From the NCBI GenBank assembly GCA_963422395.1, contig OY729431.1, positions 1,984,001-2,048,000 on the forward strand: a stretch of 64,000 bases of DNA. Reading direction: 5' to 3'. Below are positions 58,057-64,000 of this stretch, one piece after another. The notes below the pieces were generated by a model. It did not search any database, was not told where the DNA came from, and saw nothing but the letters and a program-made list of their open reading frames with translations. A program made the position numbers and the translations under genes. This stretch comes from Vicinamibacteria bacterium. GTDB lineage: Bacteria; Acidobacteriota; Vicinamibacteria; Marinacidobacterales; Marinacidobacteraceae. Every line of letters starts with the position of its first letter. Position 1 is the stretch's first letter.

Positions 58057-60354
58057 GTGTCGGCGCGCCAGATCGCGCCCGGCGGGATCAGACCCGGCCT
58101 TCGAGGCCGGGCCGGACCCTCCCGGCAGCGGTCGGACCGCGGGTATCGAGTTCGAGTGCCGCGGCGCGGCGCCTTCGCCTCGCCCGCCCACAACGCCAAC
58201 GGAACACCGCCTGCGGGTCCGGCCCCCACCAGGGCCGGCGCCCCGCTGCTGTTCCCTAGAACGCCCGCGATCGAAGACATCCTTTCTCGAACCCCCCCGG
58301 GGTCGCCCGCATCCGAACCGAGTTCGGAGATCCGGTCCAGCACGGATTCCCATTCGCTCAGCACGGGTATCGGCCGCGGTCTGCGCACACTCGCTCGTTC
58401 CTGGCCGGGGAGGATTCTGCTGGCGGTGGGGGGGGTATGGGCGCTTTCCTGGACGGGCGCCCTTCCGACAGCCTGGACGGGGGATGCCGGACTGGTGTTC
58501 GGGCTCACCCTCGCTGCGGTCTTGCTCTACTTCGGCCGCGATCTGCTGCGCTGGCTGCTCTATCCCGTTCGGCGCAAGCTGACCATCTCCTACCTGTTCA
58601 TCGGGCTGCTGCCCGTCCTGCTGCTGACCCTCTTCTTCCTGCTCGCCTTCTATGTGGCGCTCGGCCAGTTCAGCTCCTATGCCCTCCAGGCGAACCTCAG
58701 CGCCCGGGGCGCAGCCCTGGCAGGAAGCGCCCGGCAGATCCTGATCGAGATCCCCGACGGAGCCGACGACCGGGAGACCGGGGCGGCCCTCGCGCGGGCG
58801 GCCGCCGGAATCAGTGATCTCGCTCCCGGGGCGGTGGCGTGGCGCCTCGAGCGGGACGACCGCCGGATCACCCGCTTCGCGGCTTCGGCGGCGAACGGCC
58901 CGATCTCGCCGACAGACCCGATTCCCGAATGGGCCGCCTCTCCCTATGAAGGCGTGGTCCTGATGAGGGGCGGAGAGTGGTTCGGCGCCATGGTTCCGGA
59001 CGACGAAGGCCGCCGCCTCGCCGCCGTGCTGGCGCCCCTGGAGCCGCTCCTGCTTTCGAGCACCCGCGAAGAGGACCTGAACCTCCGGAGTACCTGGACC
59101 CTTTCCCTCGAAGACAGAGACGGGGAACCGTCGGCGCCTCGGATCACGGCGGGTGCCGACGACGGCCGACTCTCCATCCCCTGGATCGACAGCCTGCTGC
59201 TCGAAGCAGACCCGTGGCATCCCGGGCTCCAGGGCGGACGAGTGATCGTCTCTTTCGGCTTCGCGCCGATCCACCTGATCCAGGGGACGACCAGCAGCTT
59301 GGCGGAACCGCTCGCAATCAACGATCCGGCGCTCGGCAGCAGCCTGCTCCTGCTCCTCGGCGGGCTGGGCATGGTCTTCATCCTGCTCGAGGGCGCCGCC
59401 CTCTCCATCGGAATCCGGCTGGCCCGCTCCATCACCCGGTCGGTGGAGACCCTGAGCCGCGGCACAGAGCGGGTGCGCAGCGGGAACTTCGGCCATCAGG
59501 TCCGGGTAGCGTCGAGGGACCAACTCGGGGAGCTCGCCAGTTCCTTCAACATCATGACCGCCAAGATCGCGGACGACATGGGGCGCTTGCGCCGGGCGGC
59601 GGTCCTCGAACAGGAGATGGAGACCGCCCGAGCTTCCCAGGCACGCCTCCTGCCTCCGGAAGGTTCGGTGTCGGTCCCGGGCTTCCTGGTGTCCGCCGTT
59701 TGCCGCCCCGCAGCGCAGGTGGGAGGCGACTACTACGACCTGCTCCCGCTCGGACCCCGGCGCCTCGGCGTGGTGATCGCCGATGTCGCGGGAACCGGCA
59801 CCCGCGCGGCGTTCTACATGGCGGAGCTGAAGGGACTCATCCTCGCGCTGAGCCGAACCTACGAGTCTCCACGAAGAGTGCTCACCGAAGCGAACCGGGT
59901 CCTCCACGACACCCTCGACTCGCGCACCTTCATCACCATCACCTACGCGGTCTTCGACTCCGAGGCCCGCCTCGTGACTTTTGCGCGTGCCGGGCACAGC
60001 CCTCTTCTCCACCTGAGTCGGGAAGACGGTTCGTGGCCCCGTTCCGAGGCACTGGCCCCCGCAGGGCTCGGACTCGCGCTGGATCCGGGCCCCCTGTTCG
60101 AATCCATTCTCGAGGAGTGCTCCCTGCCACTCCACCCAGGAGAAATATGGCTCTTGTTCACCGACGGCGTCTCGGAAGCGATGAACGCAGAATCGGAAAT
60201 GTTCGGCGAGGAGCGGCTCATGCGGCTCCTCGAAGAGAACGCCGCGCTCCCGCCGGCGGAATTGCAGCGAACCCTCGAGGACGCCGTCTTGCAGTTCACC
60301 GGCGCGGAGGCCCACGCCGACGATCTGACGATGGTCCTCGTCCGGGTGGACTGA
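58057..60354 (+). CDS. Membrane HAMP + SpoIIE/PP2C phosphatase (RsbU-like)
   Basis: HAMP DQLGELASSFNIM; VGGDYYD, ADVAG, FTDGVSEA, DDLT; start uncertain. Confidence 0.88.
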   Translation: MSARQIAPGGIRPGLRGRAGPSRQRSDRGYRVRVPRRGAFASPAHNANGTPPAGPAPTRAGAPLLFPRTPAIEDILSRTPPGSPASEPSSEIRSSTDSHSLSTGIGRGLRTLARSWPGRILLAVGGVWALSWTGALPTAWTGDAGLVFGLTLAAVLLYFGRDLLRWLLYPVRRKLTISYLFIGLLPVLLLTLFFLLAFYVALGQFSSYALQANLSARGAALAGSARQILIEIPDGADDRETGAALARAAAGISDLAPGAVAWRLERDDRRITRFAASAANGPISPTDPIPEWAASPYEGVVLMRGGEWFGAMVPDDEGRRLAAVLAPLEPLLLSSTREEDLNLRSTWTLSLEDRDGEPSAPRITAGADDGRLSIPWIDSLLLEADPWHPGLQGGRVIVSFGFAPIHLIQGTTSSLAEPLAINDPALGSSLLLLLGGLGMVFILLEGAALSIGIRLARSITRSVETLSRGTERVRSGNFGHQVRVASRDQLGELASSFNIMTAKIADDMGRLRRAAVLEQEMETARASQARLLPPEGSVSVPGFLVSAVCRPAAQVGGDYYDLLPLGPRRLGVVIADVAGTGTRAAFYMAELKGLILALSRTYESPRRVLTEANRVLHDTLDSRTFITITYAVFDSEARLVTFARAGHSPLLHLSREDGSWPRSEALAPAGLGLALDPGPLFESILEECSLPLHPGEIWLLFTDGVSEAMNAESEMFGEERLMRLLEENAALPPAELQRTLEDAVLQFTGAEAHADDLTMVLVRVD

Positions 60355-60355
60355 G

Positions 60356-62002
60356 ATGAGCCGGTCCAGGCAAAGGCGCCGCTCCGTTCCGCTGGCGGTC
60401 CACCGACCGGCGGCGGAATTCGCACGCGCCCTCGGCTATCGTTTCCGCAAGGTGCGCCGGCTCGAGGAGGCGCTCACCCACGGTTCCTACCGCAACGACC
60501 ACGATGTCGCCGACTACGAACGGCTCGAGTTCCTCGGCGATGCGGCGCTCGGTCTCGTCGTCACCGAAGCCATGCATTTCCAGCGGCCCGGCTGGCCGGC
60601 GAACCGGCGGCAGGACACCAAGTCGGAAGTGGTCAGCAACCAATCGCTCGCCGGCGCGGCGCGCTCCCTCTCCCTCGAAGAGGGAATCCGCGTGGGGCGC
60701 GGCCGCAGCGCCGGCGAGGCGGTCCGCTCCTCGGACCGGATCCTGGCCAATGTGTTCGAGGCAGTACTGGGCGCTGCGTACCTCGACGGAGGAATCCCGG
60801 CTGCACGCGGCATCGTGGGAACAGCGTTCCGCAGAGAATTCGCAAAGCTGGGCCTTCGGCCGCCGGCGGGGGCCGAGGGATGGTGGCGCCGCTCCTTCGT
60901 CCGGCTCTCCACGCTTCCCCGCCTGCTCGTGCGGGCGATGCGTCGGCTGCTCTTTTCGAGGAGCTCGCGGGAACGGTCGCTTCGCTACACCTTCGCCAGC
61001 CCGCCGCTGCTCCGCGCCGCCCTCGACGGCACTCCGGAGACGCCCCGGCGCTCGAGCGGCTCTCGTCGCGGTGGAAGGCGGCGCGGCGGAAGATCGCGGG
61101 GCGGTGCCCCCCGCCGGGGAAGACCCCCGGCTCACCGGACCGGAGCGCCGGGACAACAGGCGCTTCGTTTTCTCGGGCGCGATGCCATGCATCTCGTGGT
61201 CGCCGACGCCCTGCACCGCGATTTCCCCGACTGGGACGAGGGACGGCTGACCCTCGCCCGGATGCGCCTCCAAGAACGCGAATTCACCACCCGCATGTGC
61301 CGGCACTGGTCCCTCGAAGGCGAAACCGCCGCTGCCGAAGCCGAAGCGATCGTGGGCGCGCTCTATCTCGACGGCCGGCTGCCGGCGGTCCGGCGTGCCC
61401 TCGGCCAGCCGTTCCGCGAGGCGCTCGAGGACCTGCGGAATCCGGACCTCGAACTCCTGGACCCCAAGACCCTGCTCCAGAACCGGCTCGCGCAGTCCGG
61501 CCGCGAAGCCCCCCGCTACGAGATCCGCAAGCCGGGAGAGGGCGCGCGCCAGAGCGGGGAGATCGCGGTCACACTGCGCCTCGAAAACGGCATCGAGACG
61601 ATCGGTCGCGGGCGTGGACTGAAAGAGGCGGAGAAGGACGCCGCCGGGCGCGCGCTCGACCGCTTGGACGGCGGGGCCGGTCCGGAACCCGCCCGGGAGC
61701 GGAGATCCGGTGCTCAGCCGGCAGCCCAGCCGGTCCCCGGGCGGGCGGACGGCTCTTCCAGGCCCGCGGCGGGGACAGCCGGTCGCCCCGACAACCCGAA
61801 GGGCGCGCTACAGGAGGCGCTGGTGAAACAGGAGGGACGCCTCCCGGTGTACCGGCTCATCGCGGAAAGCGGGCCGGACCACGAAAAGAACTATGTGGTG
61901 GAGGTGCTCTCCGGGCAACGGCGCCTCGGCACCGGTTCCGGACGCAACAAGCGGACGGCGGAGGCCGAAGCGGCAGCGGCGGCGCTGGAGTCCGGAATCT
62001 GA
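60356..62002 (+). CDS. rnc: Ribonuclease III with tandem RNase III domains and two dsRBDs
   Basis: ALTHGS..ERLEFLGDA..FEAVLGAAYLDGG; second degenerate domain LRFLG..EGRLT..EAIVGALYLDG; dsRBDs DPKTLLQ..KEAE and NPKGALQE..GPDH..KRTAE. Confidence 0.85.
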   Translation: MSRSRQRRRSVPLAVHRPAAEFARALGYRFRKVRRLEEALTHGSYRNDHDVADYERLEFLGDAALGLVVTEAMHFQRPGWPANRRQDTKSEVVSNQSLAGAARSLSLEEGIRVGRGRSAGEAVRSSDRILANVFEAVLGAAYLDGGIPAARGIVGTAFRREFAKLGLRPPAGAEGWWRRSFVRLSTLPRLLVRAMRRLLFSRSSRERSLRYTFASPPLLRAALDGTPETPRRSSGSRRGGRRRGGRSRGGAPRRGRPPAHRTGAPGQQALRFLGRDAMHLVVADALHRDFPDWDEGRLTLARMRLQEREFTTRMCRHWSLEGETAAAEAEAIVGALYLDGRLPAVRRALGQPFREALEDLRNPDLELLDPKTLLQNRLAQSGREAPRYEIRKPGEGARQSGEIAVTLRLENGIETIGRGRGLKEAEKDAAGRALDRLDGGAGPEPARERRSGAQPAAQPVPGRADGSSRPAAGTAGRPDNPKGALQEALVKQEGRLPVYRLIAESGPDHEKNYVVEVLSGQRRLGTGSGRNKRTAEAEAAAAALESGI

Positions 62003-62087: not shown

Positions 62088-63299
62088 GTGAAGGAGCGCC
62101 TCAACTTCGATCTGAGCGAAGAACATCGGGCCACCGAGGCGCTGGTCCGGGAGTTCGGCGCCCGCGAAGCCGCGCCGCACATCCGGGAGAACGATGCGGC
62201 GAGAGTCTTCGACCGCAATCTCTTGAAGGGCATGGCCGATCGCGGCATCCTGGGCATATCCGTTCCCGAGCGGTACGGGGGTGCGGGGCTCGATTACATC
62301 TCGCTCGGCCTGGCCTGCGAGGAACTGGAGTTCGTGGACACCTCGCTGCGCGTGATCCTGTCGGTCCACGCCGGATTGAACTCGCTGTCCCTGCTCGCCT
62401 GGGGCAGCGAAGAGCAGAAAGAGCGCTACCTGAGGCCCCAGGCCGAAGGGCGGGCGATCGCGACCTACGGCCTCACCGAACCCGACGCCGGGAGTGACGC
62501 CGTGGGCATCCGTGCCACCGCCCGCCGCGACGGCGGGGACTACCTCCTCTCGGGGGAGAAACACTGGATCTCCCTGGCCGAGATCGCCGACAACTTCCTC
62601 GTGATCGCCTGGACCGACCCCGGCAAGAGAGCTCGCCGCGACCACTCGGGGCTATCGGCGTTCGTCGTGGAACGGTCGTTCGACGGCTTCGAATCCGGCA
62701 ACATGACCCACAAGTGGGGAATCCGCGCCGGCAACACCGGCTGGTTCCGCATGCACGATGTCCGGGTGCCGGCGGCGAACCGGCTCGGCGAAGAAGGGGA
62801 GGGTTTCAAGATCGCCATGTTCGCCCTGGACCAAGGGCGCTATACCGTCGCCGCCGGTGCCGCCGGGCTGATCCGCGCCTGCCGGGATCAGAGCGTCCGC
62901 TGGGCCCGCTCCCGCACCACTTTCGGCCAGGAAATCGGCGAGCATCAGCTGGTGAAGCAGATGATCGCGGGCATGGAACGCGACTACGAGATTTCGCGCC
63001 TCCTCTGGCTTCGCGCCGGAGAGCTCAAGAACCGGGGCCGCAGGAACACCCGCGAAACCTCTCTCGCCAAGTGGGTTTCCACGGTGGCTTCCGAACGGGC
63101 CGCGTCGGACGCGATCCAGATCCACGGCTGCTACGGGTATTCGGACGAGTACCCGGTGGGACGCTTCTGGAGGAATTCGAAGGGCGCGGTGATCTACGAA
63201 GGGACGAGGGAGATCCACACCCTGATGCAGGCGGACTACGCGCTCGGTTATCGGCAGGACCGGCCGACGCGGGTTTCGCTGCCGACCGCCTGCGGCTGA
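62088..63299 (+). CDS. Acyl-CoA dehydrogenase
   Basis: [34 protein letters not shown]. Confidence 0.95.
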
Positions 63300-63336: not shown

Positions 63337-64000
63337 ATGTCGCCCGAGAATCGCCTCCGCTCCGTCGCCCCCCACTTCATCCGCACCGTCGAGGAGGCGG
63401 CGATCGCCTGCGCGCGGACCATCGGGCAGGGTGACCGCCATCGCTCGGACGCGGTCGCAGTGGCCGCGATGCGCCGCGTCCTCGACACCGCGCCGGTCCG
63501 GGGCCGGGTGGTGATCGGCGAAGGCGAGCGGGACGAAGCGCCGATGCTCTGGAGTGGCGAGGATTTCGGCAGCGGCGGCGGCGACTCACCGGCGGTGGAC
63601 ATCGCGGTGGACCCGCTCGAGGGCACGAATCTCTGTGCGACCGGCGGGCCCGGCGCCATCGCGGTGCTCGCCGCTTCGGAACGCGGCGGACTGCTCACCG
63701 CCCCCGACCTCTACATGGACAAGATCATGGTCGGCGCCGGGCCGCGCGAACTGCTGGGGACCGAAATCCGGCTCGATCACCCTCCGGAACGGAATCTCGA
63801 AACGGTCGCGGAAGCCGAAGGGCTCCCCATCGACGAGATCACCGTAGTGATCCTCGACCGGCCGCGGCACGCCGAGCTGATCGCCGGAGCCCGTCGCGCC
63901 GGGGCCCGGGTTCGGCTCATCGGGGACGGAGACCTGTCGGCGGGGGTAGCGTGCGCGACCGCCGGAAACGGCGTCCACGCGGTCATGGGATCGGGGGGCG
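63337..64000 (+). CDS. glpX: Class II fructose-1,6-bisphosphatase (partial)
   Basis: Hand translation: [42 protein letters not shown]; runs off the window. Confidence 0.93.

What the first reader, a model, noticed from the sequence alone, without database searches (positions are those of the whole stretch)
60356..62002. Bacterial RNase III with Drosha/Dicer-like layout: two RNase III domains (one apparently dead) plus two dsRBDs
Seen: a 548-aa ORF. Domain a (~60410-60820) has an intact ERLEFLGDA and ANVFEA (Asn at the E. coli D114 position). Domain b (~60970-61410) has the signature eroded to QALRFLGRDA but keeps EGRLT and EAIVGALYLDG. Two dsRBDs follow (~61460-61670, ~61790-62000). Established: bacterial RNase III is a ~230-aa homodimer with one catalytic domain and one dsRBD, each site cutting one strand; tandem domains forming an intramolecular dimer are the hallmark of eukaryotic Drosha/Dicer. 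Inference: a single-chain pseudo-heterodimer with one active site, acting as a dsRNA nickase or asymmetric processing enzyme.
Basis: partly seen in the sequence, partly recalled or inferred. Interest (0 to 1): 0.82.

Follow-up and report, generated by a model that had tools for sequence, protein, structure and literature searches.

The report
Single-chain bacterial RNase III, one dead site
One family of uncultured Acidobacteriota has replaced the ordinary bacterial RNase III with a double-length, single-chain version holding one intact and one dead catalytic domain plus two RNA-binding domains, a Drosha/Dicer-like layout that probably cuts only one strand of double-stranded RNA per binding.

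Summary
Window 60356-62002 (+) encodes a 548-aa protein laid out as RIIID-a, helical linker, RIIID-b, dsRBD1, disordered linker, dsRBD2.

It is not an assembly artefact. All 28 of 28 genomes searched in its GTDB family carry it, and none has a second RNase III locus. It sits where sister families keep an ordinary ~255-aa rnc, directly after a HAMP-SpoIIE phosphatase gene.

- **Domain a** keeps the three positions that are invariant in 136 of 136 canonical enzymes. Its Asn132 is a common natural variant (27 of 136) and is also present in Drosha's first RNase III domain.

Best reading: an intramolecular pseudo-dimer with one active site. Nicking itself is inferred, not tested.

At least five other tandem proteins with one degenerate domain turned up in the protein collections, one of them in a Bryobacterales MAG. 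Four literature searches found no description of such bacterial enzymes. Verdict: a new variant of a known kind.

The parts
60356..62002 (+). Whole gene: 548-aa tandem RNase III (stop included)
   Evidence: the only RNase III-domain locus in the 2.9-Mb one-contig genome
60356..60391 (+). Arg-rich N-terminal tail (res 1-12; 5 R/K, no D/E), modelled as disordered
60404..60850 (+). RIIID-a (res 17-165), predicted active domain: E55, E58, D62, N132, E135; lacks the 'EG' Glu (A82)
   Evidence: PF14622 92.6 bits; these residues are invariant in the 20-sequence family alignment; column comparison with 136 canonical enzymes; dN/dS 0.04-0.10
60851..60964 (+). a-b linker (res 166-203), two confident helices (176-185, 187-198), basic (9 R/K, 1 D/E)
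60965..61453 (+). RIIID-b (res 204-366), degenerate domain: R271, R275 and A327 at three metal-ligand positions; E330 kept; W-D-E-G (E295) kept
61046..61141 (+). Arg/Gly-rich disordered insertion inside RIIID-b (res 231-262; 13 R/K, no D/E), variable in length across the family
61463..61675 (+). dsRBD1 (res 370-440), weak match; the usual G-P-x-H loop is replaced by a variable loop (read from the sequence)
   Evidence: dsrm 25.1 bits; alpha-beta-beta-beta-alpha in the model; dN/dS 0.15-0.24
61676..61777 (+). Disordered linker between the two dsRBDs (res 441-474)
   Evidence: pLDDT under 50; length varies, and two family members carry a third dsRBD here
61790..61993 (+). dsRBD2 (res 479-546), canonical
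   Evidence: dsrm 57.9 bits; dN/dS 0.00-0.04
58057..60354 (+). Upstream HAMP-SpoIIE (PP2C-type) sensor phosphatase gene, ending 1 nt before the RNase III start; conserved partner of rnc across the order (the start codon is taken as that of the longest ORF)

Best explanation
The gene is the family's own rnc, enlarged by internal domain duplication into a single-chain enzyme. RIIID-a and RIIID-b pack against each other within one polypeptide as an intramolecular pseudo-dimer, the arrangement two subunits adopt in ordinary bacterial RNase III and the two domains adopt in Drosha and Dicer. Only domain a can bind the two catalytic Mg2+ ions. In domain b two metal ligands are Arg and one is Ala, so b serves as the obligatory structural partner that completes the dsRNA-binding valley. 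One binding event therefore cuts one strand. The two halves differ: a plus the canonical dsRBD2 form the strongly constrained half, and b plus the eroded dsRBD1 and an Arg-rich loop form the other. This asymmetry would let the enzyme bind asymmetric substrates in one orientation and choose which strand it cuts. Double cuts would need a second binding in the flipped orientation. Shown here: the architecture, its conservation, replacement of the canonical rnc, the fold of b, loss of b's ligands, and purifying selection on b. Predicted: a/b packing. Inferred: single-strand cleavage and orientation choice.
Against: No biochemical data exist. The a/b packing rests on one AlphaFold model built from 20 family sequences, and the network has seen Dicer, Drosha and RNase III dimers, so the packing may be recalled by likeness. 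The separate a+b complex test with controls could not be run. I had no coordinates, so active-site geometry was not inspected. Domain b keeps E330, D276 and E295, so a non-canonical site is not strictly excluded. A single-site enzyme can still produce double cuts through two bindings, so the result in vivo may not be nicks. Nothing excludes further oligomerisation of the pseudo-dimer.
Confidence: 0.6

Rival explanations
1. Ordinary homodimer through domain a. Two chains pair a with a' and make the usual staggered double cut, while b-dsRBD1 is an accessory RNA-binding or regulatory module hanging off the canonical core.
For: Domain a is a complete, well-conserved RNase III domain. Its dimerisation surface was not analysed here. 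The tool that could have compared a+b against controls never ran.
Against: The model places b on a in the Dicer/Drosha manner with high local confidence. The chain carries exactly two dsRBDs for two RNase III domains. b keeps the full fold and is under purifying selection, which is more than an appendage needs.
Confidence: 0.15
2. Domain b is still catalytic through a non-canonical site (E330, D276, E295), so the enzyme is a true Drosha-like double cutter.
For: E330, D276 and E295 are invariant in the family.
Against: The two positions that are Glu and Asp in 136 of 136 canonical enzymes are both Arg, invariantly. The third ligand is Ala or variable. The loop before the last helix is shortened, and Pfam matches only the first half of the domain.
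Confidence: 0.07
3. Catalytically inert dsRNA-binding protein: neither site works, because domain a has Asn at a metal-ligand position.
For: N132 replaces a carboxylate that the review lists among the four Mg2+ ligands.
Against: Asn at this column occurs in 27 of 136 canonical enzymes, in 4 of 4 canonical rnc of sister families, and in Drosha's first RNase III domain. The other three ligands of a are invariant, and dN/dS of a is 0.04-0.10.
Confidence: 0.05
4. Assembly chimera, gene-fusion artefact or decaying pseudogene.
For: None found.
Against: The same open frame is found in 28 of 28 family genomes, several of them single-contig. There are 72 further protein clusters. Contigs from other studies cover the SpoIIE-a junction (X5, 59800-60971) and the a-b linker (X6, 60864-61010) without credible joints. 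All segments are under purifying selection.
Confidence: 0.01

Closest known systems
Bacterial class 1 RNase III (rnc; TIGR02191)
   Same: It scores above the equivalog cut-off (233.8 vs 166.25 bits). Its nearest sequence relatives outside the family are canonical bacterial enzymes, 40-51% identical over domain a. It occupies the rnc position next to the HAMP-SpoIIE gene and is the only RNase III gene in the genome.
   Different: It has two RNase III domains and two dsRBDs in 548 aa, not one of each in ~230-260 aa. One site is dead. It is predicted to form its dimer within one chain. The review PMC7827160 (passage) defines the bacterial subfamily as one RNase III domain plus one dsRBD acting as a homodimer.
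Drosha and Dicer (class 2/3), including minimal Giardia Dicer
   Different: Both domains are catalytic in Drosha and Dicer (PMC3867540, passages). Pfam finds no PAZ, helicase or other eukaryotic module here. There is a second dsRBD. The origin is bacterial and in situ, so the resemblance is most likely convergent. The domain tree did not resolve this.
Trypanosome editing endonucleases KREN1-3 with degenerate partners KREPB4-8
   Same: One catalytic and one non-catalytic RNase III domain pair up, so only one strand is cut (PMC3867540, passage; abstract of PMC9508840 in the listing). This is the closest analogue in mechanism.
   Different: There the two domains lie on separate proteins inside a large complex, with zinc-finger and PUF modules. 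Here they lie in one bacterial chain with two dsRBDs.
Engineered E. coli RNase III heterodimers with one inactive subunit
   Same: A single functional site, which nicks dsRNA (references 39 and 40 of PMC3867540, as cited in the passage; the papers themselves were not read).
   Different: Those are laboratory constructs. This is a natural, fixed, single-chain version.
Other tandem RNase III proteins found here (P0205 of a Bryobacterales MAG; P0123, P0184, P0148, P0126 of unknown hosts)
   Same: Two or three RNase III domains in one chain, one of them degenerate at two or more of the three invariant ligand positions.
   Different: They differ in domain order (dead first in P0205, P0148 and P0126), have one or no clear dsRBD, and share low identity (35-40%). 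P0205 lies beside a canonical rnc and does not replace it. They look like independent inventions.

Membership tests
RNase III superfamily (RNase III domain fold) | Domain a matches the RNase III domain models above their cut-offs | tested here: met
   PF14622 92.6 bits (cut-off 35); PF00636 66.8 bits (cut-off 27)
RNase III superfamily (RNase III domain fold) | Domain b has the RNase III fold | tested here: met
Bacterial class 1 RNase III (rnc) | Scores above the NCBIfam equivalog cut-off | tested here: met
   TIGR02191 233.8 vs 166.25 bits
Bacterial class 1 RNase III (rnc) | One RNase III domain plus one dsRBD per chain (definition in PMC7827160) | tested here: not met
   Two of each
Bacterial class 1 RNase III (rnc) | Homodimer with two equivalent active sites | not testable with these tools
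   Sequence and model argue for an intramolecular pair with one site. The oligomeric state needs an experiment.
Bacterial class 1 RNase III (rnc) | Orthology by genomic position with rnc of relatives | tested here: met
   The HAMP-SpoIIE gene lies directly upstream in 9 of 9 family loci and 4 of 4 sister-family loci
Drosha/Dicer type (class 2/3) | Tandem RNase III domains in one chain forming an intramolecular pseudo-dimer | tested here: met
   Tandem domains. Packing is known only from a predicted model that superposes on Dicer and Drosha over 354-370 residues.
Drosha/Dicer type (class 2/3) | Both RNase III domains catalytic (two sites) | tested here: not met
   Domain b has R, R and A at three of four ligand positions
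Drosha/Dicer type (class 2/3) | Eukaryotic accessory modules (PAZ, helicase, platform and the like) | tested here: not met
   No such Pfam match at E <= 1
Drosha/Dicer type (class 2/3) | Common descent of the duplication | tested here: inconclusive
   In the domain tree a and b are each monophyletic on long stems, and deeper forks are open. Synteny points to an in-situ bacterial origin.
Single-site RNase III heterodimers (KREN/KREPB type) | One catalytic domain paired with one degenerate RNase III domain | tested here: met
   At sequence level only
Single-site RNase III heterodimers (KREN/KREPB type) | Two separate polypeptides with zinc-finger/PUF modules | tested here: not met
   One chain; only RNase III and dsrm families are matched
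Mini-III | RNase III domain without a dsRBD | tested here: not met
   Two dsRBDs are present

The most novel reading that the evidence does not exclude
A natural, obligate single-site RNase III, in effect a strand-selective dsRNA nickase, has taken over the whole RNase III role in one bacterial family. Single-chain RNase III pseudo-dimers with one dead domain have also arisen several times independently in bacteria, converging on the architecture thought to be a eukaryotic hallmark (Drosha/Dicer) and on the one-live-one-dead logic of trypanosome editing nucleases.
Probability: 0.45. Interest if true: 0.78.

Novelty: new variant of a known kind. Interest (0 to 1): 0.64.

Why it matters
Reviews divide RNase III enzymes into bacterial homodimers with one domain per chain and eukaryotic tandem-domain enzymes (PMC7827160, PMC3867540). 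This gene breaks that division. It is a bacterial tandem enzyme, fixed in a whole family and replacing the canonical gene.

- It gives a natural system for asking what a cell gains from a one-site RNase III, for example strand-selective processing or stable nicked duplexes.
- It lets one ask how rRNA and mRNA processing cope without concerted double cuts.
- It offers a second, independent example of how the Drosha/Dicer architecture can evolve from a homodimer.
- A compact natural dsRNA nickase would also be a useful reagent.

The recurrence of one-live-one-dead tandem proteins in other lineages suggests a general evolutionary route. After fusion, one site is free to decay.

Tried and rejected
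- **Complex prediction (a + b with controls).** No result, so a/b binding has no control-based test.
- **Domain tree of a, b and canonical domains (47 rows, 150 columns, quick method).** a, b and the sister-family enzymes are each monophyletic, but the deeper forks are open. It shows neither that a and b are sisters nor where either came from.
- **Phylum scan with PF14622 (301 genomes including G000).** 299 have a match, and only 3 besides the family show two matches. The model misses degenerate domains (G000 itself counts as one match), so this is no estimate of how common tandem forms are.
- **Long RNase III hits (P0080, P0082, P0084, P0085, P0087, P0092, P0094, P0097).** Read, they have one RNase III domain with unrelated extensions and are not tandem.
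- **Expression.** No RNA holder is listed.
- **rRNA processing stems.** There is one 16S-tRNA-tRNA-23S-5S operon. Duplex energy of the 16S flanks is no better than shuffles (-109.5 vs -100.2 +/- 7.5), and that of the 23S flanks is modestly better (-93.9 vs -77.5 +/- 5.6). Nothing follows for the enzyme.
- **Trans role of the 'EG' glutamate.** I recall that in the first Aquifex structure this Glu was assigned to the partner subunit's cleavage site. Two searches and one paper passage did not confirm the trans assignment. The reciprocal pattern (a lost it, b kept it) is therefore reported as unexplained, not as evidence.
- **Assembly chimera.** Rejected.
- **Joints.** They come from run X7 or X6 at 90% likeness with sides of 27 and 20 letters, and were treated as other organisms or repeats.

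Full report
**What is there.** Window 60356-62002 (+) is an open frame of 548 codons. It starts with ATG one base after the stop of the upstream gene.

Pfam finds two stretches each of the RNase III domain models (PF14622 109.4 bits, PF00636 97.5 bits) and of the dsRNA-binding motif (PF00035 76.5 bits). The NCBIfam equivalog for bacterial RNase III scores 233.8 bits against a cut-off of 166.25.

Scanned in pieces:
- Residues 36-156 are a full RNase III domain (PF14622, 92.6 bits).
- The second domain matches PF00636 at 36.7 bits, but only over the first 56 of 102 model positions.
- dsRBD1 scores 25.1 bits.
- dsRBD2 scores 57.9 bits.

The layout is: Arg-rich tail, RIIID-a (17-165), a basic two-helix linker (166-203), RIIID-b (204-366) with a disordered Arg/Gly-rich insertion (231-262), dsRBD1 (370-440), a disordered linker (441-474), and dsRBD2 (479-546).

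**It is real and fixed in a lineage.** The genome is one contig of 2.9 Mb, and this is its only RNase III-domain locus.

A search of 5.8 billion proteins gave 72 further 90%-identity clusters with the same layout. They have E <= 1.7e-74 and 47-67% identity; a few are partial, and those named are called 'hypothetical protein' of Acidobacteria MAGs. The next hit is an ordinary RNase III at 1.9e-29.

In whole genomes, 24 of 24 relatives of the same GTDB family have the full-length gene. In the two sister families, 15 of 16 genomes have only an ordinary-sized rnc (open frames 254-453 aa). The one genome without a match is 73% complete. One of these 15, G033, is an unpublished genome.

A family-wide scan with PF14622 found one locus in each of 28 of 28 genomes. 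Where there were two matches, the second lay in the same open frame.

Contigs from other studies cover the upstream-gene/domain-a junction (59800-60971) and the a-b linker (60864-61010) without credible rearrangement. The chimera explanation is rejected.

**It is the family's rnc, enlarged in place.** The upstream gene is a HAMP-SpoIIE (PP2C-type) sensor phosphatase.
- The same gene directly precedes the tandem gene in 9 of 9 family loci examined.
- It also precedes the ordinary rnc in 4 of 4 loci from the sister families.
- The acyl-CoA dehydrogenase and glpX genes downstream are shared only within the family.

A canonical sister enzyme aligns colinearly with b+dsRBD1 in one segment (residues 259-437, 31% identity). 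It aligns separately, and better, with a (37%) and with dsRBD2 (41%).

A tree of the domains left the deeper forks open, so the order of duplications is not settled. Two family members carry a third dsRBD, so dsRBD duplication is ongoing in this family.

**The two catalytic domains.** The review PMC3867540 (passage) names four carboxylates that hold the two Mg2+ ions in Aquifex RNase III (E40, D44, D107, E110).

I aligned 136 canonical enzymes, which are the 200-330-aa proteins among the best 150 hits. The columns of E58, D62 and E135 of domain a are invariant in 136 of 136. The column of N132 holds D 92, N 27, A 6, G 4, S 3, R 3 and C 1.

The Asn is therefore a common natural variant:
- All 4 of 4 canonical rnc read from sister families have it.
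- It aligns with the Asn of human Drosha's first RNase III domain. That domain cuts the 3p strand (abstract of PMC7049713, listing).

Domain a therefore looks active.

In domain b, an ungapped HMMER alignment to Drosha's second domain, together with an HMM column table, puts R271 and R275 on the two signature ligands and A327 on the third. E330 is retained. R271, R275 and E330 are invariant across the 20-sequence family alignment. Domain b is almost certainly unable to bind the catalytic metals.

One unexplained reciprocity remains. The 'EG' glutamate is present in 132 of 136 canonical enzymes. It is lost and variable in a (A82) but invariant in b (E295, in W-D-E-G).

Within one genus, where dS is 0.26-0.83, dN/dS is as follows:

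| Segment | dN/dS |
|---|---|
| RIIID-a | 0.04-0.10 |
| RIIID-b core | 0.08-0.22 |
| dsRBD1 | 0.15-0.24 |
| dsRBD2 | 0.00-0.04 |

All parts are constrained. The pair a + dsRBD2 is constrained most, and b + dsRBD1 less.

Read from the sequence, dsRBD1 lacks the usual G-P-x-H loop, and dsRBD2 keeps it.

**Packing.** The whole-protein AlphaFold model (20 sequences; pLDDT 80, pTM 0.64) has Drosha and Dicer chains as its best Foldseek matches. The first bacterial RNase III appears at rank 31.

Realigned with VIA-align:

|---|---|---|---|---|
| Dicer, dicing state, 7yyn_A | 26.9 | 4.3 | 354 | 6-441 |
| Drosha, active state, 6v5b_A | 24.9 | 4.6 | 370 | 17-441 |
| Giardia Dicer, 2ffl_A | 21.1 | 4.1 | 290 | 14-362 |
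| Single bacterial nuclease domains | up to 21.0 | 1.8-2.7 | 142-148 | domain a only |

About 350 ordered residues of a, b and dsRBD1 can superpose together only if the model packs a on b as these enzymes pack their two domains.

This is a prediction, possibly by likeness to known structures. The complex test with decoy controls never ran, and I could not inspect coordinates.

**Mechanism proposed.** The protein is an intramolecular pseudo-dimer with one active site in a, so one strand is cut per binding. This is the behaviour reported for RNase III heterodimers with one functional subunit, and the behaviour proposed for trypanosome KREN/KREPB pairs (PMC3867540, passage; abstract of PMC9508840).

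The built-in asymmetry could fix the orientation on asymmetric substrates and so select the strand. That asymmetry consists of a live half carrying a canonical dsRBD on a long flexible tether, and a dead half carrying two Arg in the former metal site, an Arg-rich loop and an eroded dsRBD.

These last steps are inference. Rivals are listed separately: a-a' homodimer 0.15, active b 0.07, inert binder 0.05, artefact 0.01.

**Comparison and novelty.** By sequence and position this is a bacterial rnc. By architecture it fails the class 1 definition of one domain plus one dsRBD acting as a homodimer (PMC7827160, passage). It resembles class 2/3 enzymes but fails their two-active-site feature and lacks their accessory modules.

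Four full-text searches listed no paper describing a prokaryotic tandem-domain RNase III. Supplements were not available, and subscription journals are largely outside the library.

The protein is not unique in sequence space. Among the best 150 of 1.84 billion representatives, seven other proteins have two or three RNase III domains.
- Five of them have one domain degenerate at two or more of the three invariant positions: P0123, P0184, P0148, P0205 and P0126.
- P0205 lies in a Bryobacterales MAG (also Acidobacteriota), directly after a canonical rnc.
- P0121 is two complete units fused, both intact.
- P0179 looks eukaryotic.
- The hosts of the others are unknown.

The pattern suggests repeated, independent evolution of one-live-one-dead single-chain RNase III in bacteria. 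The phylum tally includes three unpublished genomes (G066, G189, G091) and is in any case insensitive to degenerate domains.

**Verdict.** This is a new variant of a known kind, of real interest to RNase III and RNA-processing specialists, pending a simple biochemical test.

Noticed in passing
window 58057-60354 (+); L005-L017: A HAMP-SpoIIE (PP2C-type) membrane sensor phosphatase gene ends one base before the RNase III start. The gene pair is kept across the family and in sister families with an ordinary rnc, which suggests a conserved operon linking a signalling phosphatase to RNase III.
   Followed up: partly
L018 2941-5241 (Bryobacterales MAG OZ241376.1): A canonical 250-aa rnc is directly followed by a 500-aa paralog (P0205) with a dead first RNase III domain and an intact second one. 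This is a second, differently ordered tandem RNase III in another Acidobacteriota class.
   Followed up: partly
proteins P0121, P0123, P0126, P0148, P0184 (metagenome proteins, hosts unknown): Further multi-RNase-III-domain proteins. P0123 and P0184 are live + dead + dsRBD. P0148 is dead + live + dsRBD. P0126 has three domains, the first degenerate. P0121 is two complete RNase III units fused, with both signatures intact.
   Followed up: partly
proteins P0054, P0056 (family members; alignment A1 columns ~540-640): Two members of the family carry a third dsRBD inserted between dsRBD1 and dsRBD2.
   Followed up: no
window 60599-60601 (A82) and 61238-61240 (E295): The 'EG' glutamate is present in 132 of 136 canonical enzymes. 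It is lost in the live domain a but invariant in the dead domain b. This reciprocal pattern has no verified explanation.
   Followed up: partly
window 60356-60391, 61046-61141: An Arg-rich N-terminal tail and an Arg/Gly-rich disordered loop inserted next to the former active site of domain b. Both are conserved in character but variable in length across the family.
   Followed up: no
G000:C1:297426-302810 (L019): A single rRNA operon, 16S-tRNA-tRNA-23S-5S. The flank-pairing test was uninformative for 16S and weak for 23S.
   Followed up: partly
protein P0124 (2391 aa, metagenome): A very long protein with four matched stretches to the query, including an RNase III domain at residues 1425-1554. 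It was not examined.
   Followed up: no
window 62103-63299 and 63337-63999: Downstream genes are an acyl-CoA dehydrogenase (about 80-91% identical across the family, far more conserved than the RNase III) and a glpX-type fructose-1,6-bisphosphatase. This downstream synteny is confined to the family.
   Followed up: no
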